Translations under genes and position numbers: made by a program
The notes under the pieces: model-generated
What the model saw: the letters and a program-made list of their open reading frames with translations, nothing else
Told to the model about the DNA's origin: nothing
Databases searched by the model: none
Shown here: positions 1,049 to 51,766 of the stretch, piece after piece
Layout: each line of letters begins with the position of its first letter
Numbering within the stretch: the stretch's first letter is position 1
Virus record (IMG/VR): IMGVR_UViG_3300014205_007777
Location: 5,476 to 69,475 of that record
Reading direction: 5' to 3' (one strand)
Length of the DNA: 64,000 nucleotides
DNA from: a virus
Taxonomy: Duplodnaviria > Caudoviricetes

Positions 1049-2203
1049 ATGCAAAAGACATTTAAGTACCGGATTTATGCGAATAGAGAGACGATAACCA
1101 AAGCCGAAAGCTGGTTATGGCTTTGTCGTAATCTTTATAACTGTGCGTTAGAGCAGCGTATAATAGCGTATCGTGAACATGGTATTTCGCTGACAGGGTA
1201 TACTCAGATGGCGGAACTTCCTGAAATTAAGAATGGGTTCCCTGAATATAAAACGGTTGGTTCACAAGTCCTCCAACAATGCCTGGATAGATTAGATAAA
1301 GCATATAAAGCGTTCTTCAGACGGATTAAGCAAGACGAAGAACCTGGTTTCCCACGCTTCAAAGGTAGAGACCACTATGACTCATTCACGTTAAAGAATA
1401 CTGGATGGACTATGGATGGTAGATTCCTTTCAATCCGTAATGTCGGTAGGTTCAAATTAAGATTATCACGCCCGATTCAGGGTAATATTAAAACAATCAC
1501 GATTCGCCGGACGCCCTCAAACAAATGGTATGCCTGCTTTAGTTGCGATGGAGTGCCTTTGAAATTATTGCCTTATTCGGACAAGGTAGTAGGTTTAGAT
1601 GTTGGTATAAAGTCGTTTCTGGTAGATTCTGAAGGTAATCCACCTATCGGTAATCCGAAATTCTTAAAACATAGCCTGAAAGAGTTGAGGGTTAAACAGC
1701 GTAAGTTAGCACGAGCCACAAAAGGCTCAAACAGGCGTAAAGACGCTAAACTTCAAGTATCTAAAGTCCATGAGAAAATAACAAATCAAAGGTCAGACTT
1801 CCATCATAAGTTAGCCAATGAATATATTAGGAACTATGGCTTAATCGTATTTGAAAAACTCCAGATCAGGAACATGGTTAGAGAACATACATTGGCTAGA
1901 GATATAAGTGATTGCTCATGGGGACAATTCTTTGAATATTTAGACTACAAAGCGGAAGAGGCTGGCAGGCTGATATTCAAGGATAATCCCCGAAATACCT
2001 CCAAGATGTGTCATGTTTGCGGTTGGATAAATAAAGACTTGGAACTGAGTGATAGAGAATGGGTTTGCCAGAACTGTGGAACGATACATGATAGAGATTT
2101 TAATGCAGCAATCAACCACAAAAATGAAGGAATTAAATATTTAAAGAGGCTCGGATTGAGCCATCAGGCGTCAACGTGGCAGGATACTGCGTGCGTAGCC
2201 TGA
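1049..2203 (+). CDS. tnpB: TnpB RNA-guided endonuclease (IS200/IS605 family)
   Basis: N-terminal KTFKYRIY HTH, RuvC triad GLDVG / IVFE / RDFNAA intact, CHVC...CQNC zinc finger. Confidence 0.95.
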   Translation: MQKTFKYRIYANRETITKAESWLWLCRNLYNCALEQRIIAYREHGISLTGYTQMAELPEIKNGFPEYKTVGSQVLQQCLDRLDKAYKAFFRRIKQDEEPGFPRFKGRDHYDSFTLKNTGWTMDGRFLSIRNVGRFKLRLSRPIQGNIKTITIRRTPSNKWYACFSCDGVPLKLLPYSDKVVGLDVGIKSFLVDSEGNPPIGNPKFLKHSLKELRVKQRKLARATKGSNRRKDAKLQVSKVHEKITNQRSDFHHKLANEYIRNYGLIVFEKLQIRNMVREHTLARDISDCSWGQFFEYLDYKAEEAGRLIFKDNPRNTSKMCHVCGWINKDLELSDREWVCQNCGTIHDRDFNAAINHKNEGIKYLKRLGLSHQASTWQDTACVA

Positions 2204-17453: not shown

Positions 17454-18218
17454 TTAGGCAGTTAATTCCTGGCAGCGGGCACACACGAAGCTGAGAAGCT
17501 GGAATTTCGTACTGCCGGTAATACCGGGCATAACAGCGATAGCCTGGCTCTGTAGAGGACCTACGATGACCGGTTTCTCAAAACGGATTACCTGGATATC
17601 ATTATTTGCCGTACCCAGATAGGTTTTTACATTCTGGCAGGCACTCTGGGCCGGAGTTGCTACCCCGCCGAGAGTAAAGGTAACATCGGTGATCTTCGGT
17701 ACTTCGATCGGGTCAATAGCACCGATATGAATAACGGAGGCGAACTGCTCCATTGTCTGGCTTGGGACAAGATTCGCGGAACTATTAGCGGTAACTGTCG
17801 ATAACCAGGTAAAGACGCCGCCGGAAGTACCGCCGTACAGACCGAGAGAACCGGTTGCCGCCGGATTCAAAATGGCACCACCGACATCCTTCGGTCTTAA
17901 CCATTTGAGATCCAACATGGTACCTGCACCCAGGATACCGGCAAACTGTCCTTTGGCCTGTTCCTTAGCCATACGTACAGCAATAAAAATAGACTGAACA
18001 TTCTCGGCAACCAGGGTGGCGATAAGCGGATTATTCGTCTGGTTGACCAGAGCATCAATCTTAAGTAACAAAGTGTCTGATTCCTTCGCGGAAAATGCGG
18101 CCAGTGCTATCGGAGACATGGTTTGACCGGGGTTGATGACTGCCTCAGTACAGGGATAACTCCCATCTATAGGCCAGTCTCTTACAAGTCCTTTATTTGT
18201 CTGATAAACTATACCCAT
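17454..18218 (-). CDS. Candidate major capsid protein (jelly-roll type, not HK97)
   Basis: 254 aa; helical N-half, beta-strand-patterned C-half; strong SD; early in structural operon; fold not verified. Confidence 0.5.
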   Translation of the reverse strand: MGIVYQTNKGLVRDWPIDGSYPCTEAVINPGQTMSPIALAAFSAKESDTLLLKIDALVNQTNNPLIATLVAENVQSIFIAVRMAKEQAKGQFAGILGAGTMLDLKWLRPKDVGGAILNPAATGSLGLYGGTSGGVFTWLSTVTANSSANLVPSQTMEQFASVIHIGAIDPIEVPKITDVTFTLGGVATPAQSACQNVKTYLGTANNDIQVIRFEKPVIVGPLQSQAIAVMPGITGSTKFQLLSFVCARCQELTA

Positions 18219-25800: not shown

Positions 25801-26802
25801 CTAACCGAATATCTGACCTATAACTATTAGAATCTCATATACTGCACCGACTATAACCATGAGAGCCGCCCACTTCTTAAAATTAGATTTAAGTAAAAGC
25901 AAGCAGGCTAATAACGGGGGAAAGACTATAAAACAAATACCGGTGAGGGGTTTTAGGACTCCGATATTGATGAGCAACCCCTGATAAAAGAACATGAAAA
26001 GGAACCATGCGGTAAGATACCACTGGAGGGTTGAGAGGGATTTTACACTTACTATCGTTTCACCCATATCAGTTACAGTACTAATATCCCCATCTTCCAC
26101 TGTTTTCGTCTGTCGTTCGCGGTGCACTATCCAATCCGAGTGTTTCCATACCTCATATGCCATACTCTTTACGCCTTTTTTGAGATTAGCGGAGGCGTCG
26201 TCCCACTCGTCTAACGCTAATCCCGCAAAACTCAAAACTATCATAAAAGGAACACTGGCTAGTAAGATGTTCATCCAGTTCGGCGAAGGATTGACTGCCA
26301 GAGCACCGATTATTGCCGGTATCGGACCGCAGGCTATACCTAGCGCAAGTTCGTGTGTATAACTAAATTTAGCTATAAAACTATACCAGAAAGTCATCGA
26401 CATACCGACCACAGCCACAGGTAAAATCAACCATGAAACATTTATTGCTAAATATATTACAGGGATAAACGCCAGTATGATATAAACCACACCCAATATC
26501 CATGTCTCACGCAAACTTAACATCTTTTTAGCTATCAGATTGGAACCACCAGTATATGTTTTTTCCGCGCTTCTTTCCTCTACTTCGCCACTATCCAATC
26601 CGGTCATCCAATCCCCCGCTCCATTCAAGATATGCCCTGATGCCATTATTAGTAACGTAGCTACGGCAGCAACCCAAGTATTAACGTGTATTCCACCGGA
26701 TATTACAGAACCCAAAAACATCGCGGCTAAAAAGTACGGAGCCGCAAACCACCTTGGGGCCTGGATAACGTAGGTCTTAAACTTTTGAATGTTCATTATC
26801 AT
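25801..26802 (-). CDS. UbiA-family (MenA-like) membrane prenyltransferase
   Basis: Multiple TM helices; LNGAGDWMTGLD and LDEWDDASAN acidic motifs; KKGVKSMA after second motif. Confidence 0.85.
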   Translation of the reverse strand: MIMNIQKFKTYVIQAPRWFAAPYFLAAMFLGSVISGGIHVNTWVAAVATLLIMASGHILNGAGDWMTGLDSGEVEERSAEKTYTGGSNLIAKKMLSLRETWILGVVYIILAFIPVIYLAINVSWLILPVAVVGMSMTFWYSFIAKFSYTHELALGIACGPIPAIIGALAVNPSPNWMNILLASVPFMIVLSFAGLALDEWDDASANLKKGVKSMAYEVWKHSDWIVHRERQTKTVEDGDISTVTDMGETIVSVKSLSTLQWYLTAWFLFMFFYQGLLINIGVLKPLTGICFIVFPPLLACLLLLKSNFKKWAALMVIVGAVYEILIVIGQIFG

Positions 26803-27721
26803 ACTCCTTAATAAGTGTATTTACTTTGTTTACGATTTCTTTTTCAGATAATTCTTTCAACTCATGTTCCCAAATAACTAACATTCCATAGCCATACCTT
26901 GAGTATACTTCACGTCTTTCTGACTCTTTTCTATAAGGTTGCGTCGCTTTGGGACCGTGCCAGTAATCACCAAAAAATTCAATTATTAGTTTCTTGCCAT
27001 TACAATTGATGAAATCGGGTACTAAATTTTCTATTACCAATTTGCCACTACCGACATATTTCCACTGATCTGGGAAATATTTATCCAAGATAGAGCAAAG
27101 CTGTGTTTCTTTTTTATTTGGTCTTTTCATACCACGCCTTTGAGCCATTACCATTTCTGTCTTCATTCTTTTCCACTGTTCCTTCGCTATCCGACTCTGG
27201 TACTCCCTCCCCTCTGCTGTTCTCATACGTTCATGACCTTTTTGAAGGAACTTTTCAAGAATTTCTGGATGCTTTATTCGCGTTGTTTTAGCACCCTTCG
27301 CTGAAGATATTCTATGTTCAGGTGATTGGTTTAACTCTTTAAGGTGATTAAGTAACTTATTTCTAAATTCTGGCTCTTGCCATTTCTTTTTAAGGGAACC
27401 GCGTTGCTTAGTTATAAGACCTCGTTTTATATTAACTTCGGGAGTGTGAGCTTCTGGTATGTCGCCCCTTTTTATTGCAGCAACGCTCATCTTTTTTATA
27501 GTATCGGCAGTAAAGCACCCTTTCTTGCCTTTATTCCAAGCCTTAGTACCTTTACGACCCAACGACGTACACCGACGACTGTGGTATTTTATCTCACCTC
27601 TCTTTATTAAGGCGCTCTTATATTCCCAAAAATCAACACCACAATACTGGCACTTCAACCATACAATCTCAGCCCCTCGCCCACCTACCTCTCTTATTCT
27701 ATCCCTTACTCTCATCTCCAA
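26777..27721 (-). CDS. Free-standing homing-type endonuclease (NUMOD3-like motifs plus Vsr/DUF559-like nuclease)
   Basis: AWNKGK motif; C-terminal PDF...IIEFFGDYWHG...VIWEHE. Confidence 0.75.
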   Translation of the reverse strand: MEMRVRDRIREVGGRGAEIVWLKCQYCGVDFWEYKSALIKRGEIKYHSRRCTSLGRKGTKAWNKGKKGCFTADTIKKMSVAAIKRGDIPEAHTPEVNIKRGLITKQRGSLKKKWQEPEFRNKLLNHLKELNQSPEHRISSAKGAKTTRIKHPEILEKFLQKGHERMRTAEGREYQSRIAKEQWKRMKTEMVMAQRRGMKRPNKKETQLCSILDKYFPDQWKYVGSGKLVIENLVPDFINCNGKKLIIEFFGDYWHGPKATQPYRKESERREVYSRYGYGMLVIWEHELKELSEKEIVNKVNTLIKEYDNEHSKV

Positions 27722-27879
27722 CCTTACTCTTAGCTACTTTTAAAATTATACTCAGTACTTCAGCTACTGTAGTATTTGACTTTTGAGCCATACTCAGCAG
27801 AACCAGATATTCTTTTACATTTACTCTGATTATTCTTGTGTTCAATTCTGAAGGATATTTTCTCTTAGTCATGTATACA

Positions 27880-29028
27880 TTATACTACACTTGTTACAAG
27901 GCTGTCAATAGTATTAGGAAAAATCTCCTCCTTATTTTCACTATAGATTACCGCTGGTTTTGGCTTCATACCAAAACGGCACAAAGTCATCCCCCCCGAC
28001 ATTCCGGGACCAATTGACAACATCGCCACATAATCTCCCGGTTGAATATTCTCACTCATTAATAGTTTCCCTTGAATCCCAACACTTGTCGAACTTGTAT
28101 TACCATAAAGCCGTAGTGTCTCCCGCGAAAGAGCAAGTTTCTCCTCTGGCAAACTTAAAGCCTTACCTATATTATCTATCACCGAACCTCCTGCAGCATG
28201 TATAACCCACCAGGTTATATCCCATATATCCAGCCCATTGCGTTTTAACACAGCCCATACCGCGGGTTTGACCACCTGTGCCGCCAGTTCCGGCACACGG
28301 CGTGATAGTATCACTCTCAACCTTCCGTTACGCCACTCAAACCCCAGGTCATCAAGATACTCCGTATTGGTATTATTCTCGGTATCTATTATTTCCGGAT
28401 GCCGCCAATCATCATCGTCTCCGATAAGAGCTGCAATAGCAGCATCGGCAAAAAGTGCATTACTGCGTAAAACTTCAAATCCGTTCTCGGGATCTGGACG
28501 GCAAGTAACATCATCGGGGTTTTCTCTCTCCGGCCAATACGCCAAACTACTTAATTCACAGTTCACCGCTAAAGCCTGCCCGCCATTGGCCTTTACATAA
28601 TCATAAGCTGTTTTCAGACCAGGGAAAGCAGCTTCACAACCCATTCCGGAGTTATTAATTATATAGGTGTCCGGCGAAAATCCTAACCGCGCAGACAAAA
28701 AATGGGGAATAGTCGGACCGGGAGCGAATCCGGTACAGCTCCCGTATATCATACGTTTAATTGCTTTTATATCCCTTCCGTCCAGGCAATTTTTTATAGC
28801 TTCTACAGACAGATCCACAGCCTTTCCTCTATAGAGGTCTTGCTGTTCCTGGAAAGACATTTTCACCGCGTCCGATAATTTTATTACGAAATGACGCTTA
28901 TCTATCCCGCTGTCACGGAAAATACGCCACCAAACCTTAGGATAACCCAATATATTAAATGCCTCTTCTTGGGTATACCAATACTCCGGTACCGCGTAAC
29001 CAATAGAAATAAGTTTAACCCTGCTCAA
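27880..29028 (-). CDS. Type III polyketide synthase (chalcone synthase superfamily)
   Basis: Complete Cys-His-Asn triad: GMGCEAA, WVIHAAG, YGNTSS; also NCELSS, LFADAA, IGPG motifs. Confidence 0.92.
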   Translation of the reverse strand: MSRVKLISIGYAVPEYWYTQEEAFNILGYPKVWWRIFRDSGIDKRHFVIKLSDAVKMSFQEQQDLYRGKAVDLSVEAIKNCLDGRDIKAIKRMIYGSCTGFAPGPTIPHFLSARLGFSPDTYIINNSGMGCEAAFPGLKTAYDYVKANGGQALAVNCELSSLAYWPERENPDDVTCRPDPENGFEVLRSNALFADAAIAALIGDDDDWRHPEIIDTENNTNTEYLDDLGFEWRNGRLRVILSRRVPELAAQVVKPAVWAVLKRNGLDIWDITWWVIHAAGGSVIDNIGKALSLPEEKLALSRETLRLYGNTSSTSVGIQGKLLMSENIQPGDYVAMLSIGPGMSGGMTLCRFGMKPKPAVIYSENKEEIFPNTIDSLVTSVV

Positions 29029-29260
29029 TTTTACCCTCCTTTACCAGATAATCAATAACATCCTGGACTGTAATAAATTTCTCCGCGACCTCATCCGTAA
29101 CAATTACCATATACCTCGTCTCGAGAACCATCGCCATCTCTACCAGGTCAAGTGAGTCCGCACCGAGGTCATCTTTAAATTTAGACTCCGGTTTAATATT
29201 CTCTTCCGGCACATCCAGGTTTTTCGCGATAAAACCTATCAAATCACTGATTTTGTCCAT
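29015..29260 (-). CDS. acpP: Acyl carrier protein
   Basis: DDLGADSLDLVEM phosphopantetheine motif; overlaps PKS start. Confidence 0.95.
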   Translation of the reverse strand: MDKISDLIGFIAKNLDVPEENIKPESKFKDDLGADSLDLVEMAMVLETRYMVIVTDEVAEKFITVQDVIDYLVKEGKIEQG

Positions 29261-39085: not shown

Positions 39086-39331
39086 GTGGAAAATAAAAAC
39101 ACCTTAGTAGTATGTCCTAGGTGCAAACGAGTGGTAGATAAGAAGCATAAATACTGCGCTTACTGTGGCTTTCGTCTCTTAGAAGATGACGGTACGCGCC
39201 GGAAAATTAGAGAGCCGGGAATAGTTTTCCAGAAAGGATATTTTCTCCCAAGCCAGTTTGGAATATTACTCAAATTGTCATCCAAAGAGGGTATAACCTT
39301 CAAGTCTATCGATTCGGAGGTACACGGTTAA
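39086..39331 (+). CDS. Zinc-ribbon protein
   Basis: CPRC...CAYCG. Confidence 0.6.
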   Translation: MENKNTLVVCPRCKRVVDKKHKYCAYCGFRLLEDDGTRRKIREPGIVFQKGYFLPSQFGILLKLSSKEGITFKSIDSEVHG

Positions 39332-40311
39332 TGGGCGATATAACCGATGAATTAAAGAACGCACAAGGCGGGAATGAGAAATCAGATTCTAAATTAGATA
39401 AGGTGCAGCTCTGTTATAAACTAATAAAATTACCATCCGTCAATATTATCCTGGGGAATGTTGGACGGGGAAAGTCGTCCCTCGCATACGAGTTACTAGA
39501 CAAGTTATCAATGGAGTACGGTCTTTTGCCAGTGGTGGTTAATTTACCAGCACAGAAACGGAATCTCCTACCGGAGAATTGGGTTATCAAGGATATAGAG
39601 GGATTAAAACATACCGAAAATTGTATTGCTTTAATAGACGAGGGTACGACAACCTTACCAGCCGGAGCTAAGGTTGAAGAAATGGTAAAATCGCTATCTT
39701 CATTAAGTAGGCAAAGAAACCAAATAATCGTGATGATTTTTCACAGCGGGCGTGATGTCGGATCTCGAATCCTGCGCGGTATCTACGGCGCGATCCTGTT
39801 GAAAGAACCGTCTACCAGGCAAATTCAGTACGGTAGTAAAGACGCATGGATGAAGGATATGCTCACCGGAGCTAAAACGAAGTTTAAAGCACTCAAAGAT
39901 TTAGGTGAAGAAACTAGAGCATGGACATGGGTAGATAGTGAAGAACCTGAATTTCAAGGAATGGCACGTAACGGACTCCCAAATTTTTGGAGCGATGATT
40001 TGAGTAAGGCCTGGAGTGGAGTGGATACGGATAATCAGATAGTGGTTACTAAACCTTCCGGCCAGGCTATGACTGCAATCGATATGTTCAAAGCCCGGGA
40101 CACCGACAATGAAACGATGGACGAGTACTTCGATAAAATGGGTGTACCGCCGGACCCGGTCTTGAGAGATCTTATCTGTAAACTGGACGGAGAGTATCTT
40201 CTAGAGGATTTACAGAAGATTTGTAAAGAACAAAACTTACCGAGCTCCGGGGATAAGCATAAGTTAGTCTGGCGATTAATGGAGGCCGGATATTTTGAGG
40301 AGAAGAAATGA
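39331..40311 (+). CDS. FtsK/HerA-superfamily P-loop ATPase with C-terminal SAP-like domain; candidate genome-packaging ATPase
   Basis: ILGNVGRGKS Walker A, IALIDEG Walker B, SLSRQR Arg-finger region; LEDLQKICKEQNLPSSGDKHKLVWRL SAP pattern. Confidence 0.6.
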   Translation: MGDITDELKNAQGGNEKSDSKLDKVQLCYKLIKLPSVNIILGNVGRGKSSLAYELLDKLSMEYGLLPVVVNLPAQKRNLLPENWVIKDIEGLKHTENCIALIDEGTTTLPAGAKVEEMVKSLSSLSRQRNQIIVMIFHSGRDVGSRILRGIYGAILLKEPSTRQIQYGSKDAWMKDMLTGAKTKFKALKDLGEETRAWTWVDSEEPEFQGMARNGLPNFWSDDLSKAWSGVDTDNQIVVTKPSGQAMTAIDMFKARDTDNETMDEYFDKMGVPPDPVLRDLICKLDGEYLLEDLQKICKEQNLPSSGDKHKLVWRLMEAGYFEEKK

Positions 40312-47385: not shown

Positions 47386-47877
47386 ATGGAAGATACCGAT
47401 TGCCAAATAGGAAAACGAGTTTTGGTTACAGAACTAAATGTAGAAGGTACTATTTACGAGAGTGGGTTGCCTGATTTTAGTGTAGATAGGATATATGGAA
47501 TCAGATTCGATAAAACAGTTTTCCCTGTAAATTTTATTGCAACAACTGTGTGGCATTGTAAAGCAAGTGAATTAAGTGAAGACCGTAATGATTATCTTGA
47601 GCAATTAGAAATGGACAATATAAAGTTAATTGATGAAAACAAGAAGTTAAAAGGAGAAAAGATGTTTAGTGAATTAAGTTTAGAATACACACCTATTGAT
47701 ATGTCACAAGACAAGAATACTATTAATACTGAAAGTGGCTGTTGGATTGCCAGATTTAAAGAGCAAGGAATTACTGCGTATGGCAAGACATTAGAAATTG
47801 CCACAGAAAAGGCAACTAAAATGTTGAAGGAATGGTATTTAGTGAATCAGGTCTCTCTAAATAATAAGGAGTGTTGA
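47386..47877 (+). CDS. Hypothetical protein
   Basis: ORF track; SH3-like N-half, HicB-like C-half pattern (weak). Confidence 0.55.
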   Translation: MEDTDCQIGKRVLVTELNVEGTIYESGLPDFSVDRIYGIRFDKTVFPVNFIATTVWHCKASELSEDRNDYLEQLEMDNIKLIDENKKLKGEKMFSELSLEYTPIDMSQDKNTINTESGCWIARFKEQGITAYGKTLEIATEKATKMLKEWYLVNQVSLNNKEC

Positions 47878-47883
47878 GCTAAG

Positions 47884-48234
47884 ATGAAAATTAATTACAC
47901 GATAACAATATATGGTGAATCAGCCAGTGATATGCGTGAGGTAGAACCCGATGATGTCGCTGATACAACATGGGAATACCAAGATATCTGTTGTGATGAC
48001 ATGAAAAAACTAATTGATGGTCATGTTATTAAACCGACTACAGAAAGAGTGACACGTAAGTCAGGTTTGGACAGTATGCTAATTTTTGCCTCTGATTTCC
48101 CAATAATAATGCGGTACTGTCCCTTTTGTGGGACTAAGTTTACCTTCCATGAAATTGGGAGGTTAAAGAGAGTTAGAACAGCCGCGTTACCCCGTACAAG
48201 GTACGAATACGAATATGAAGAAAAACCTGTATAG
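47884..48234 (+). CDS. Hypothetical protein
   Basis: CCDDM...YCPFCG; same leader motif. Confidence 0.65.
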   Translation: MKINYTITIYGESASDMREVEPDDVADTTWEYQDICCDDMKKLIDGHVIKPTTERVTRKSGLDSMLIFASDFPIIMRYCPFCGTKFTFHEIGRLKRVRTAALPRTRYEYEYEEKPV

Positions 48235-49150: not shown

Positions 49151-49157
49151 GGTGTAA

Positions 49158-49340
49158 ATGGGTGGAACTATATATCCTGAATGTCTCATGACAGAAATTA
49201 AGGTATTTGCAGGGTTTGATTCTGATTCAAGAATCCTGTATGTATTCAAGAAAAGACCTTTAAAAGTGAGAAGGGAACTGGCTGGAGGGAGGGGGTGGTT
49301 ATCCTTTCTCCACCCTCTCCCGAAAGTTAACGATAAGTGA
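49158..49340 (+). pseudogene. Truncated duplicate of the gene at 51452, fused to hairpin-derived sequence
   Basis: First ~36 codons match 51452-51565, then run into the B hairpin repeat. Confidence 0.65.
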
Positions 49341-49343
49341 GGT
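49272..49343. repeat. Hairpin-containing direct repeat B, left copy
   Basis: AGGGAACTGGCT...GGGAGGGGGTGG-ttatcctttct-CCACCCTCTCCC-GAAAGTTAACGATAAGTGAGGT; second copy at 51366-51437. Confidence 0.85.
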
Positions 49344-49423
49344 TAAAGAAATGCGTGAAAGATGCACCTGACATTAATAACTTGTTAAATAGTTATACCA
49401 AATAAAAAAATAAAGGGAGAACA

Positions 49424-51352
49424 ATGGAAAAGAATAAGAAATTAGTTTCAAGACGAGACTTTCTAGCCGCTAGTGGCGCCGTCATAGCGGCCGGTGCATT
49501 AAGTGCATGTACACCAAAGACATCAACCGTAACTACTACGGCAGCTCCAATCACGACAACGAAAACAGTAACTAGTACCGCGACTCAAACAGCGCCGGCA
49601 GTGACTACGACGGTGACAGGAACAACGGTCACAAAAACACCCGAGACAGTTTCATTCGATGTTATGAATCCGGCGGGCGCAATCGCACCAGTACCATTCA
49701 CGGGGTTAAGTAATCCACGTCTTACTACTCTGGAAGGTAAGAAAATTGTATTGACCGAGAATGGTAAACCTGGCTCTGGTTTCTTCTTAGATGAGCTTGC
49801 AATATTGTTAAAGAAGAAATATCCCACAATAACAACCTTCCGACTGCGTGGCACAGAAGCTTCAACGAAGATAAAAGATGAAGCAGACGCCTGGGTCCAT
49901 GCAACCGGTGACTGAGGACAATGCACCTGGGCAGGGTCCCAGACTTCAGTCGGTTTCGAAAAACTTGGTAAACCTGGTGTGTACTTCACAGCTGATAGCT
50001 TCCTTAATGATGGTAGATCAGGAGCGGAAGATAATGGTATGCCCACACTGCGCATACTGACAGTACCGGCTGGAACGTATTATCCAGCTCGTGTATCAAC
50101 AGAACTAATGCGTCCCATCGCAGAGTTGGTCTTCAATGATCTGGTCAAGGCGCTTACCACTCCTCTCACGGATGCCGAAAAGAATCCACCGCCGAAAGTT
50201 ATCGATGTCACAACTCCGATAAAAATCACCGGCAGGACATATAATGAGGCTCTGGAGTTTATGCAACAGATTTTTCTCACTAATCGTTGGATAGATAGTC
50301 TACCGATAATACCGCCTACTGCAGAAGCGGTTAAGTGGATGATGACCGGTACAACGCGCTCACCAAAGGAAGTGCTAGGTGTTATGGCGCCTAAAGATGG
50401 TGAAGTTACCATAGAGAAAGTTGCTATTAATGCGGTAATGGCAGGAGCCAGGCCGGAATATTTCCCTGTCATCATAGCCGCAGCAGAATGTCTGGCATCT
50501 CCCGATTTCTATACTCTTCATCTACAGGCTTCAACAGGATCGGAAGTTCCGGTGATAATTGTTAATGGACCTATTATCCAAGAAATTGGAATGAATTTCG
50601 AAATGGGATTCATGGGTGATAGTTGTCGGCCAAACAGTACGATTGGTCGTGCAGTAAGTTTATGCATGATTAGTCTTGGTTGGGCCTGGTCGCAGTTCAA
50701 TGATCAGGGGTTAACGGGTCGACCAGAGGGCTATTGTAACTTCGTTATTCCTGAGAATGAACGGGACTCGCCCTGGATGCCATACCATGTAGAATTGGGG
50801 TACAAACCGGAAGAGTGTACTGTAACTGTGGCTTCGTCTATGGCATATACACGGCATGGCTCCGGTGGTGCGGTAACCGCCCTGACGGTTGAGGAAAATA
50901 TGCAATCCCTGGCGAATAATATCGCTACCGTAGGTACATCCGCCAGTTATGTATTTAGGACCGGCGTTAATGCCAAGAGATACGTTGTAACGATACAACC
51001 CGCACTGTCCCGAGATTTGGCTAAACTCGGATACGATAAACAAAAACTAAAGTTATGGCTTTATGACCATGCTCTCTTCCCATGGGACGACCTATTCCCG
51101 GTTGAGAAGACAGATTTGGAAGTCTCTGTAAAAGCGGGGCGTATTCCAGGTGTAACCATGGATGATCTCAAACCAGGCGGTGGTATTCGAGCATTCCGAG
51201 GTCCAGACCACATGACCATAGTGGTAGCAGGCGGTGAACCCTGTTATTGTTGTGTGTTCTGTTACCCCGGACCACATACACCACCATCAAAACCAGATCA
51301 GCACATAACCAAGAAAATATATGGAGCAGCCCTTACTAAGGCAGGTAAGTAG
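49424..51352 (+). CDS. UGSC-family-like selenoprotein, Tat-exported lipoprotein (642 aa, Sec at TGA 49913-49915)
   Basis: ORFs 49424-49915 and 49979-51352 are in frame; readthrough gives HATGD-U-GQCTW (UxxC); SRRDFL twin-Arg plus ALSAC lipobox; SECIS-like hairpin 11 nt after UGA. Confidence 0.85.
49916..49942 (+). promoter_or_regulatory. Bacterial SECIS element
   Basis: 11-nt spacer then CTGGG-CAGGGT-CCCAG stem-loop with G-rich apical loop. Confidence 0.75.
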
Positions 51353-51365
51353 TTTACCAGCCAGC

Positions 51366-51437
51366 AGGGAACTGGCTTTCGGGAGAGGGTGGCTATCCTT
51401 TCTCCATCTTCTCCCGAAAGTTAACGATAAGTGAGGT
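51366..51437. repeat. Hairpin-containing direct repeat B, right copy
   Basis: TTCGGGAGAGGGTGG-ctatcctttct-CCATCTTCTCCCGAA; stem kept through G-T-compatible changes. Confidence 0.85.
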
Positions 51438-51451
51438 GTAAAAGGAGAGAA

Positions 51452-51766
51452 ATGGGTGGAACTATATATCCTGAATGTCTCATGACAGAAATTAAGGTGT
51501 TTGCAGGTTTTGATTCTGATTCAAGAATCCTGTATGTTTTCAAGAAAAGACCTTTAAAATTTCACAGGGAAACAACTTCTTACTCTCGCTTATATAAAGA
51601 ATTATCATTTGTACCGCCAAGGGGAGTATTGTTGTGTATAACTCTTTGGCATAATAGTTTTCCTGTGAAGTTAGAAGTTATGAAAGGGCATGACTGGACT
51701 ACGATATACAAACTTCAAGAGCTACCGGACGATCGTCAATGTTTAGCTGGATGTCATAAACTATGA
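51452..51766 (+). CDS. Hypothetical protein (full-length copy of gene A)
   Basis: ATG behind AAGGAG; 5' end duplicated at 49158. Confidence 0.65.
   Translation: MGGTIYPECLMTEIKVFAGFDSDSRILYVFKKRPLKFHRETTSYSRLYKELSFVPPRGVLLCITLWHNSFPVKLEVMKGHDWTTIYKLQELPDDRQCLAGCHKL

What the first reader, a model, noticed from the sequence alone, without database searches (positions are those of the whole stretch)
49424..51352. A bacterial virus encoding a selenoprotein
Seen: two annotated ORFs join in frame through one TGA to give G-D-U-G-Q-C-T, with a stem-loop 11 nt downstream (the spacing known from E. coli fdhF SECIS), a twin-arginine signal, lipobox and Thr-rich linker. Established: UGSC-type (seleno)proteins occur in anaerobic bacteria; known viral selenoproteins are mainly poxvirus glutathione peroxidases. 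Inference: an exported redox auxiliary metabolic gene that needs host SelABCD and constrains host identity.
Basis: partly seen in the sequence, partly recalled or inferred. Interest (0 to 1): 0.85.

Follow-up and report, generated by a model that had tools for sequence, protein, structure and literature searches.

The report
Selenoprotein gene on virus-like mobile element
A 69-kb circular element that a public database classes as a bacterial virus carries an intact gene for an exported selenium-containing protein of a family common in anaerobic bacteria, which it could only make using its host's selenocysteine machinery. The gene is real, but I could not confirm independently that the carrier is a virus.

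Summary
Observation confirmed. Window 49424-51352 (+) reads through one TGA (49913-49915) into a 642-residue protein. It has a twin-arginine signal, lipobox, Thr-rich linker, UGSC domain (Pfam PF24696) with G-D-U-G-Q-C-T, and a roughly 400-residue C-terminal domain with no family match.

The TGA is ancestral and not an error. 121 of 147 distinct bacterial or metagenomic homologues have TGA at the aligned codon, 3 have Cys, and 23 have lost the motif. Three assemblies show the same TGA and flanks. TGA ends 24 other genes here, so the code is not globally changed.

The 5-bp hairpin 11 nt downstream is no better than chance by itself. Across the family, though, a hairpin at that position goes with TGA (88/121 against 4/26).

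The element has no tRNA-Sec, selB or selD, so it needs a Sec-decoding host. The gene lies between two direct repeats and nests inside an unlabelled metagenomic clade; a member of that clade lies on a bacterial chromosomal contig. No other IMG/VR contig found by the pattern scan carries the family.

IMG/VR classes the record as viral. I found no terminase, portal or known capsid family, only a conserved jelly-roll protein, so "virus" is probable and not shown.

The UGSC family and a UGSC fusion are already published. This scan has flagged other candidate phage selenoproteins on other DNA. Function is unknown.

The parts
49424..51352 (+). Complete selenoprotein gene (642 codons plus TAG stop), read through one UGA
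   Evidence: Translation with TGA=U. It is 54-58% identical to metagenomic homologues that read through a TGA at the same codon.
49414..49419 (+). Shine-Dalgarno-like AGGGAG, 4 nt before the ATG
   Evidence: Read from the sequence.
49424..49510 (+). Twin-arginine signal (SRRDFL) and lipobox LSAC, with Cys29 as the predicted lipidated residue
   Evidence: TIGR01409 at 19.5 bits (cut-off 16.7) and Pfam TAT_signal at 21.7 (cut-off 22.7). The lipobox was matched by pattern.
49511..49648 (+). Thr-rich linker (residues 30-75, 23 of 46 are Thr)
   Evidence: AlphaFold2 pLDDT is mostly below 60 here (block means 32-61).
49709..50158 (+). UGSC domain (residues 96-245), modelled as a flavodoxin/CheY-like three-layer alpha/beta fold
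   Evidence: Pfam PF24696 at 71 bits; NCBIfam NF041046 at 55.7 bits, below its 125 cut-off. VIA-align Z about 10 to receiver and flavodoxin-like domains over residues 104-248.
49913..49915 (+). UGA codon for selenocysteine (U164)
   Evidence: TGA at the aligned codon in 121 of 147 distinct homologous loci. Identical in three assemblies.
49922..49924 (+). Cys167, the likely resolving partner in the U-G-Q-C motif
   Evidence: Cys at +3 in 62 of the 64 TGA-bearing metagenome loci.
49927..49942 (+). Candidate SECIS hairpin: CUGGG, loop CAGGGU, CCCAG
   Evidence: Present. Not significant alone. In the family, a stem of at least 5 bp at this position occurs in 88/121 TGA loci against 4/26 non-TGA loci, Fisher p = 7e-8.
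50171..51349 (+). C-terminal domain (residues 250-642) of unknown function, with many invariant polar residues and no conserved Cys
   Evidence: No Pfam, NCBIfam or PDB-sequence match. Confident AlphaFold2 model. Invariant columns listed.
49156..49277 (+). Repeat D1a: duplicated 5' part of the small gene that starts at 51452
   Evidence: 93% identical to 51450-51571.
49259..49343 (+). Repeat D2a: 12-bp G+C-rich hairpin element upstream of the gene
   Evidence: 86% identical to 51353-51437. Fold energy -29.8 kcal/mol.
51353..51437 (+). Repeat D2b: the same hairpin element, starting directly after the stop codon
   Evidence: z = -3.3. All differences from D2a keep the pairing through G-U pairs on the + strand.
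51450..51571 (+). Repeat D1b: start of the intact small gene 51452-51766

Best explanation
Window 49424-51352 is an intact selenocysteine-encoding gene of the bacterial UGSC (seleno)protein family, in its long form: a UGSC domain fused to a roughly 400-residue C-terminal domain.

Shown:
- The UGA at 49913 is the family's ancestral Sec codon.
- The gene nests within an unlabelled metagenomic clade, one member of which lies on a bacterial chromosomal contig.
- It lies between two copies of a roughly 200-nt repeat.
- The carrier is a circular element of about 69.4 kb that lacks any Sec machinery.

Inferred:
- In a Sec-decoding host, SelB with Sec-tRNA binds the hairpin 11 nt downstream of the UGA and inserts Sec.
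- The folded protein is exported by the Tat pathway, lipidated at Cys29 and held on a Thr-rich tether outside the membrane.
- U164 and C167, at the start of a helix, form a selenenylsulfide redox pair that serves the C-terminal enzyme-like domain.
- The gene was captured from a bacterium by recombination, as an accessory ('moron'-type) cassette.

The carrier is probably a temperate virus of an uncharacterised lineage. That rests on its database class and on indirect features.
For: Reading frame and motif.

Family membership: Pfam PF24696 at 71 bits against a cut-off of 25.

TGA conservation:
- Three metagenomic homologues read GD-U-GSC.
- 63 of 80 genome loci have TGA, across Acidobacteriota, Chloroflexota, Thermodesulfobacteriota and others.
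- 64 of 78 informative metagenome loci have TGA.
- After removing duplicates: 121 TGA, 3 Cys, 23 other.

Hairpin: at the family level it is tied to TGA, 88/121 against 4/26. Mean stem is 5.85 bp against 4.0 in shuffles.

No global recoding: TGA ends 24 other genes, and there is only one such read-through site.

No Sec machinery on the element.

Not an assembly error: an ENA contig of 69,499 bp is 99.99% identical over 9.3 kb including both flanks. A Logan contig is 100% identical from D1a to D1b. The TGA is the same in all.

Origin: the gene sits in a 99%-supported clade with metagenomic homologues. One of these lies on a 54.7-kb contig with ribosomal and fatty-acid-synthesis genes.

Accessory status: flanking repeats; two related IMG/VR records lack the family.

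Adaptation to the element: GC3 of 0.40 lies within the range of the element's other genes.

Export.
Against: - The window's own hairpin has only 5 bp, is no better than shuffled sequence, and competes with an alternative fold.
- As I recall the bSECISearch rules, a G is expected among the first two loop bases. Here the loop starts CA.
- Function is untested. 23 of 147 homologues have lost both U and C, so the C-terminal domain can work without the redox pair.
- No virion hallmark family was found in any ORF.
- ArdC and ParA/Mrp-like genes also occur on plasmids.
- The host is unknown, so whether it decodes Sec is unverified.
- No reads or expression data could be examined.
Confidence: 0.75

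Rival explanations
1. The gene is a genuine selenoprotein gene, but the carrier is a plasmid or integrative element wrongly classed as a virus. The finding would then be a mobile-element-borne bacterial selenoprotein, not a viral one.
For: No terminase, portal, HK97/PRD1-type capsid, tail or FtsK-type ATPase family was found in roughly 100 ORFs. The element carries an integrase, ArdC, a ParA/Mrp-like ATPase, a TnpB-type transposase and methyltransferases. The 117-nt 'terminal repeat' is consistent with a circle: 69,475-117 = 69,499-141 = 69,358.
Against: - IMG/VR classes this record and two relatives as viral, one of them as a provirus.
- No relaxase, VirB4, coupling protein or plasmid Rep was detected among the large ORFs.
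- There are several PHROG families of unknown function, DUF5131, and a DnaC-loader and clamp-loader module.
- There are two beta-helix proteins and an Ig-domain protein.
- A conserved protein of about 251 residues has 78 homologues. Its model has a jelly roll, and its best structural match is the capsid protein of Sulfolobus polyhedral virus 1 (Z 6.9, weak).
- Its nearest ESM Atlas clusters are mostly viral.
Confidence: 0.3
2. In its actual host the UGA terminates translation. The locus would then give a 163-residue lipoprotein stub, with or without a separately started C-terminal protein, and would be a decaying or split gene.
For: The window's hairpin is weak. Gene callers split the gene. 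GTG and ATG codons exist downstream of the UGA.
Against: Both halves are intact and conserved, and protein conservation runs through the 22 codons between the UGA and the first possible restart. The split would cut the UGSC domain through its active-site helix. The same arrangement is the norm in 121 bacterial loci.
Confidence: 0.1
3. The TGA or the gene's position is a sequencing or assembly artefact, such as a chimeric join through the flanking repeats.
For: The gene is bracketed by repeats at which assemblers can switch paths. No other IMG/VR contig carries the family.
Against: Three assemblies from different pipelines agree base for base on the TGA and on both junctions. The repeat copies differ (93% and 86% identity), so paths can be resolved. 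The Logan contig carries the D1a-specific variants next to the gene. Two assemblies give the same 69,358-bp unit length.
Confidence: 0.03
4. The element uses a genetic code in which TGA is a sense codon (Trp or Gly), so the residue is not selenocysteine.
For: Stop-codon recoding is known in some phages (from my own knowledge).
Against: TGA ends 24 of 103 called genes. Only this site joins two long conserved open stretches. No suppressor tRNA is present. Homologues in many bacterial phyla have TGA or Cys at this codon.
Confidence: 0.02

Closest known systems
UGSC-containing (seleno)protein family (Pfam PF24696; NCBIfam NF041046; Zhang & Gladyshev 2008, PMC2398784; 2026 review PMC13188914)
   Same: Same domain and the same U-G-x-C motif with Sec at the same position. 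The family is a major prokaryotic selenoprotein family, and its function is uncharacterised.
   Different: The motif here is U-G-Q-C, not U-G-S-C. The protein scores below the NCBIfam equivalog cut-off (55.7 against 125), because NF041046 models the roughly 147-residue stand-alone protein. This one has an export signal, a linker and a roughly 400-residue extra domain, and sits on a virus-classed element.
'UGSC/Unknown_1' fusion selenoproteins from ocean metagenomes (PMC2398784, Figure S1A)
   Same: A UGSC domain fused to a conserved domain of unknown function.
   Different: I could not check whether 'Unknown_1' is the same C-terminal domain, because the figure is held only as an image.
E. coli fdhF-type bacterial SECIS read by SelB (from my own knowledge)
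   Same: An in-ORF hairpin begins 11 nt after the UGA. G and U sit in the apical loop about 20-22 nt after the codon.
   Different: The stem has only 5 bp, with no bulged U, and the loop is CAGGGU. SelB binding is untested.
Poxvirus glutathione peroxidase selenoproteins (molluscum contagiosum and fowlpox viruses; from my own knowledge)
   Same: A virus-borne gene that needs the host's selenocysteine machinery.
   Different: Those are eukaryotic viruses with a 3'-UTR or eukaryote-type SECIS and a different protein family.
Phage 'morons' and auxiliary metabolic genes
   Same: A single host-derived gene sits between structured elements in an accessory region and is absent from related elements.
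   Different: A metabolic role is not shown. The flanking hairpins lack U-tracts, so they are not canonical terminators.

Membership tests
Bacterial selenoprotein gene (SECIS-dependent UGA recoding) | In-frame UGA with protein conservation on both sides | tested here: met
Bacterial selenoprotein gene (SECIS-dependent UGA recoding) | Homologues carry Sec (TGA) or Cys at the aligned position | tested here: met
   121 TGA, 3 Cys and 23 other among 147 distinct loci.
Bacterial selenoprotein gene (SECIS-dependent UGA recoding) | SECIS hairpin directly downstream of the UGA | tested here: inconclusive
   A 5-bp hairpin lies at +12 to +27 but is not above chance alone. At the family level, a hairpin at this position is linked to TGA with p = 7e-8; relatedness of the loci is not corrected for. 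No Rfam match.
Bacterial selenoprotein gene (SECIS-dependent UGA recoding) | SelA, SelB, SelC and SelD available in the expressing cell | not testable with these tools
   The element has none. The host is unknown.
Bacterial selenoprotein gene (SECIS-dependent UGA recoding) | Selenium demonstrably incorporated into the protein | not testable with these tools
   Needs 75Se labelling or mass spectrometry.
UGSC family (Pfam PF24696) | Score above the Pfam gathering threshold | tested here: met
   71 bits against 25, residues 96-245. 67 bits in the six-frame search.
UGSC family (seleno)protein, NCBIfam NF041046 equivalog | Score above the curated 125-bit cut-off | tested here: not met
   55.7 bits. 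It is a relative, not an equivalog of the small stand-alone protein.
UGSC family | U/C-G-S-C motif | tested here: met
   U-G-Q-C here. The third position varies (S, A, G, T, Q) among homologues, while U, G and C are kept.
Tat-exported lipoprotein | S/T-R-R-x-F-L motif, hydrophobic stretch and lipobox Cys | tested here: met
   SRRDFL and LSAC. TIGR01409 is above its cut-off and Pfam TAT_signal is just below. Export itself is untested.
Virus of bacteria (tailed, or PRD1-like tailless) | Recognisable major capsid protein and genome-packaging ATPase (terminase or FtsK/HerA type) | tested here: inconclusive
   No family hit in any ORF. The 254-residue jelly-roll protein gives only weak matches to viral capsid proteins, Z 6.9 or lower. 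A 326-residue P-loop protein is unassigned. IMG/VR classes the record as viral.

The most novel reading that the evidence does not exclude
The carrier is a temperate virus of a so-far undescribed lineage: it has a jelly-roll capsid candidate, no known terminase, and its own lipid and glycan synthesis genes. It infects an anaerobic, selenocysteine-decoding bacterium and has captured an exported selenoenzyme as a repeat-flanked cassette. This would be the first virus-borne member of a major bacterial selenoprotein family. The selenoprotein would be made from the prophage using host SelABCD and would change the host's extracytoplasmic redox chemistry.
Probability: 0.35. Interest if true: 0.7.

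Novelty: new member of a known kind. Interest (0 to 1): 0.5.

Why it matters
I found no paper reporting a selenoprotein encoded by a virus of bacteria. The 2026 review of prokaryotic selenoproteomes mentions neither phage nor virus. A survey of ocean metagenomes found few or no viral sequences in selenoprotein families (PMC9402790).

If the carrier is a virus, three things follow:
- Selenocysteine decoding becomes a host trait that a virus can depend on.
- It gives a host-range marker, because the host must have selABCD.
- It adds selenium to the trace elements through which viruses may alter host metabolism.

Separately from the virus question, the data show that the long UGSC-fusion proteins form a very large, mostly unannotated selenoprotein family. 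More than 3,300 database proteins match. Gene callers routinely split them at the Sec codon. Subfamilies have lost the redox motif.

Tried and rejected
- Folding energy of the SECIS region is not significant for the window. I dropped it as evidence and used a position-restricted hairpin test instead.
- Rfam gave no SECIS or other family for the region or for the D2 hairpin.
- Function of the C-terminal domain:
  - Foldseek against the PDB gave only weak flavodoxin-like hits to the N-terminal domain.
  - The VIA wide search was filled by the UGSC domain.
  - The PDB profile search gave nothing.
  - The ESM Atlas feature search gave no named cluster.
  - The Atlas fold search failed twice.
  - The domain was never searched alone, so I make no claim of a new fold.
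- Other viral carriers: single-protein and profile scans of IMG/VR found no other relative.
- The exact 22-mer of repeat D2 was not found in the viral or metagenome contigs, so no 'empty site' relative was recovered.
- Virion hallmarks: PHROGs and Pfam on essentially all ORFs, a tblastn search of the 254-residue protein against GenBank phages, and six-frame searches for Terminase_6N and FtsK all found nothing.
- Host identification:
  - The closest homologues carry no taxon name.
  - The roughly 50% identity relatives include a Desulfobacterales MAG.
  - Contigs with the capsid-candidate homologue are binned to both Chloroflexi and an archaeon, which is uninformative.
- Gene neighbourhoods of bacterial homologues show tandem paralogues but no consistent operon.

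Full report
**The observation**

ORFs 49424-49915 and 49979-51352 lie in one frame. A single TGA at 49913-49915 joins them into 642 residues. The product starts with SRRDFL and an LSAC lipobox. A linker follows that is 50% threonine.

Next comes a domain that matches Pfam UGSC (PF24696) at 71 bits against a cut-off of 25, over residues 96-245. It also matches NCBIfam NF041046 at 55.7 bits, below that model's 125-bit equivalog cut-off. The read-through residue sits in H-A-T-G-D-U-G-Q-C-T-W. About 400 further residues match no Pfam, NCBIfam or PDB sequence.

**Is the TGA a selenocysteine codon?**

A search of 5.8 billion proteins gave more than 3,300 relatives. Full-length ones (570-640 residues) carry PF24696. 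Many closer ones are 415-460 residues long and start just after the position of the TGA, which is what a gene caller produces when it stops at a Sec codon.

Reading the DNA of three such loci through the TGA gave uninterrupted homologues with G-D-U-G-S-C-T-W at the aligned place. I then counted across larger sets:

| Set | TGA at the aligned codon |
|---|---|
| 80 loci from species-representative bacterial genomes | 63 |
| 78 informative metagenome loci | 64 |
| 147 distinct loci after removing duplicates | 121 TGA, 3 Cys, 23 neither |

The 23 with neither Sec nor Cys belong to subfamilies reading G-V-K-T-S-G-S or G-D-N-G-M-G-G-W. The TGA is therefore the ancestral state of a large selenoprotein family and not a nonsense mutation.

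The element does not read TGA as sense in general. TGA ends 24 of its 103 called genes. Only this site joins two long conserved open stretches.

**The hairpin**

By itself it proves nothing. Its folding energy is no better than that of shuffled sequence, and a third of shuffles give a stem as long at that place. A competing fold is slightly more stable.

The family gives the evidence. I restricted the search to hairpins whose loop lies 16-27 nt after the codon.
- TGA-bearing loci have a mean stem of 5.85 bp, against 4.0 bp in their shuffles.
- 88 of 121 TGA-bearing loci have at least 5 bp, against 4 of 26 loci without TGA (Fisher p = 7e-8).
- The loci are related, so this p-value overstates independence.

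The stems differ in sequence between subfamilies (CUGGG/CCCAG, GUGGA/UCCAC, GCCGGC/GCCGGC). The closest relative, L004, has CUUGG/CCAAG with a similar G-G-G-U-containing loop. I rate the SECIS as family-supported and plausible for the window, but not shown.

**Is it an artefact?**

Two further assemblies hold the same DNA.
- An ENA contig of 69,499 bp is 99.99% identical over the 9.3 kb I fetched, including the gene and both flanks.
- A 2,305-bp Logan contig is 100% identical from inside repeat D1a to inside D1b.
- All three show the TGA.

The arithmetic 69,475-117 = 69,499-141 = 69,358 suggests one circular unit assembled twice. This is an inference, as I did not see the ends of the ENA contig. 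I could not examine reads.

**Context and origin**

The gene is bracketed by direct repeats in the order D1-D2-gene-D2-D1. D1 is the first roughly 110 nt of the small gene that starts at 51452. The upstream copy is a truncated duplicate.

D2 contains a 12-bp G+C-rich hairpin. Its two copies differ only by changes that keep pairing through G-U pairs on the + strand. That points to an RNA-level role. It has no U-tract.

In a tree of the C-terminal domain, the window's protein sits in a 99%-supported clade with three metagenomic sequences, at 54-58% identity. One of them also lies on a 54.7-kb contig with ribosomal protein L32 and fatty-acid-synthesis genes, so that relative is bacterial and chromosomal.

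GC3 of the gene (0.40) lies within the range of the element's other genes. Two IMG/VR relatives of the element lack the family. One is a provirus and the other an 85-kb record with terminal repeats. Pattern scans of 2.9 million IMG/VR contigs found no other carrier. The most economical reading is a single, not very recent, capture from a bacterium.

**Dependence on the host**

ARAGORN and Rfam find only a tRNA-Met. The tRNA-Sec model scores it at 26.6 bits, below its 47-bit threshold. selB and selD models find nothing. Full-length translation therefore needs a host with the Sec-decoding trait.

The host is not identified. Relatives at about 50% identity include a Desulfobacterales MAG. The family is richest in Chloroflexota (Dehalococcoidia), Acidobacteriota and Thermodesulfobacteriota.

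**Is the carrier a virus?**

IMG/VR classes it as a virus with direct terminal repeats.

My own tests are inconclusive. PHROGs and Pfam on essentially every ORF found the following:
- a DnaC-like loader, clamp loader, exonuclease and integrase
- HNH nucleases, methyltransferases and a TnpB-type transposase
- ArdC, DUF5131 and a ParA/Mrp-like ATPase
- a type III polyketide synthase, UbiA and an acyl carrier protein
- two beta-helix proteins and an Ig-domain protein

They found no terminase, portal, capsid or tail family. Six-frame searches for Terminase_6N and FtsK in this element and two relatives were empty. No relaxase, VirB4 or coupling protein turned up among the large ORFs I scanned, though I ran no targeted search for conjugation genes.

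Its confident model (pLDDT 84.7) has N-terminal helices followed by a jelly roll. The best structural matches are weak: Sulfolobus polyhedral virus 1 capsid protein at Z 6.9, birnavirus VP2, and phage fibre-tip domains. Its nearest ESM Atlas clusters are mostly viral.

I put the chance that this is a virus at about 0.7.

**Function**

The UGSC domain models as a flavodoxin/CheY-like three-layer fold (Z about 10). U164 and C167 sit at the start of a helix that follows a strand. That geometry fits a redox-active pair.

The C-terminal domain has many invariant polar residues and no conserved cysteine. Bacterial genomes often carry several tandem paralogues, with variable neighbours.

I infer a selenol/thiol-dependent enzyme with an unknown substrate, here anchored outside the membrane. 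A role as an auxiliary metabolic gene is plausible but untested.

**Comparison and verdict**

The UGSC-containing family is a long-known major prokaryotic selenoprotein family, and a UGSC fusion was published in 2008 (PMC2398784). The gene is thus a new member of a known kind.

What is unusual is its carrier. I found no paper describing a selenoprotein of a bacterial virus. Notes from this scan report other candidate phage selenoproteins on other DNA. These are unchecked leads, not evidence.

Noticed in passing
window 49259-49343 and 51353-51437: The D2 repeat holds a 12-bp G+C-rich hairpin. All differences between its two copies preserve pairing through G-U pairs on the + strand only. It has no U-tract, no Rfam match and no other copy in the window. 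It may be an RNA processing, stability or terminator-like element bracketing the cassette.
   Followed up: partly
window 49158-49340 and 51452-51766: The small gene at 51452 (104 codons) has a truncated duplicate of its first 36 codons upstream of the selenoprotein gene. That duplicate runs into D2a. Recombination between the copies would delete the cassette.
   Followed up: partly
window 17454-18218 (-): This 254-residue protein has 78 metagenomic homologues, almost all 249-262 residues long. Its model has N-terminal helices followed by a jelly roll, with weak matches to archaeal and other viral capsid proteins. It is followed by two genes of about 90 codons in this element, and by one or more small genes of about 85-100 codons in relatives (L087, L088, L095).
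   Followed up: partly
whole element (G000, 69,475 bp) and relatives L087-L090, L095, L096: This is a lineage of 37-85-kb elements with no recognisable terminase, portal or capsid family. They are rich in glycosyltransferase, sugar-nucleotide, radical SAM, LytB, and lipid or polyketide genes. One relative is classed as a provirus.
   Followed up: partly
window 25801-29260 (-): Pfam confirms a type III polyketide synthase (27880-29028) and a UbiA-family prenyltransferase (25801-26802). PHROGs finds an acyl carrier protein among the small ORFs scanned, probably 29015-29260.
   Followed up: partly
window 39331-40311 (+): A 326-residue protein with a Walker A motif at residue 42 (GNVGRGKS) and a C-terminal SAP DNA-binding domain. 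It has no family assignment and is a candidate packaging or partition ATPase.
   Followed up: no
loci L015, L023, L024, L028, L030, L034, L035, L100, L121 and others: Whole subfamilies of the long UGSC-fusion proteins have replaced D-U-G-S-C by K-T-S-G-S or D-N-G-M-G-G, so they have neither Sec nor Cys. Many still carry twin-arginine signals. The C-terminal domain therefore seems to work without the redox pair.
   Followed up: partly
L001 (265-2103 and 2257-3999), L092, L094: Bacterial contigs carry two or three tandem or divergent paralogues of the family. In L001 both copies have their own in-frame TGA. Public gene calls split the Sec forms into a roughly 110-165-residue and a roughly 415-460-residue 'hypothetical protein'.
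   Followed up: partly
window 1049-2203 (+): A transposase gene matching phrog_506 (E = 2.6e-110, probably IS200/IS605 TnpB-like) lies inside the element, next to a 528-residue DNA methyltransferase.
   Followed up: no
window 47386-48234 (+): Two adjacent genes (47386-47877 and 47884-48234) are in the same frame, separated by TGA plus two codons. The second has its own ATG, so this looks like ordinary adjacency and not a second recoding site.
   Followed up: partly
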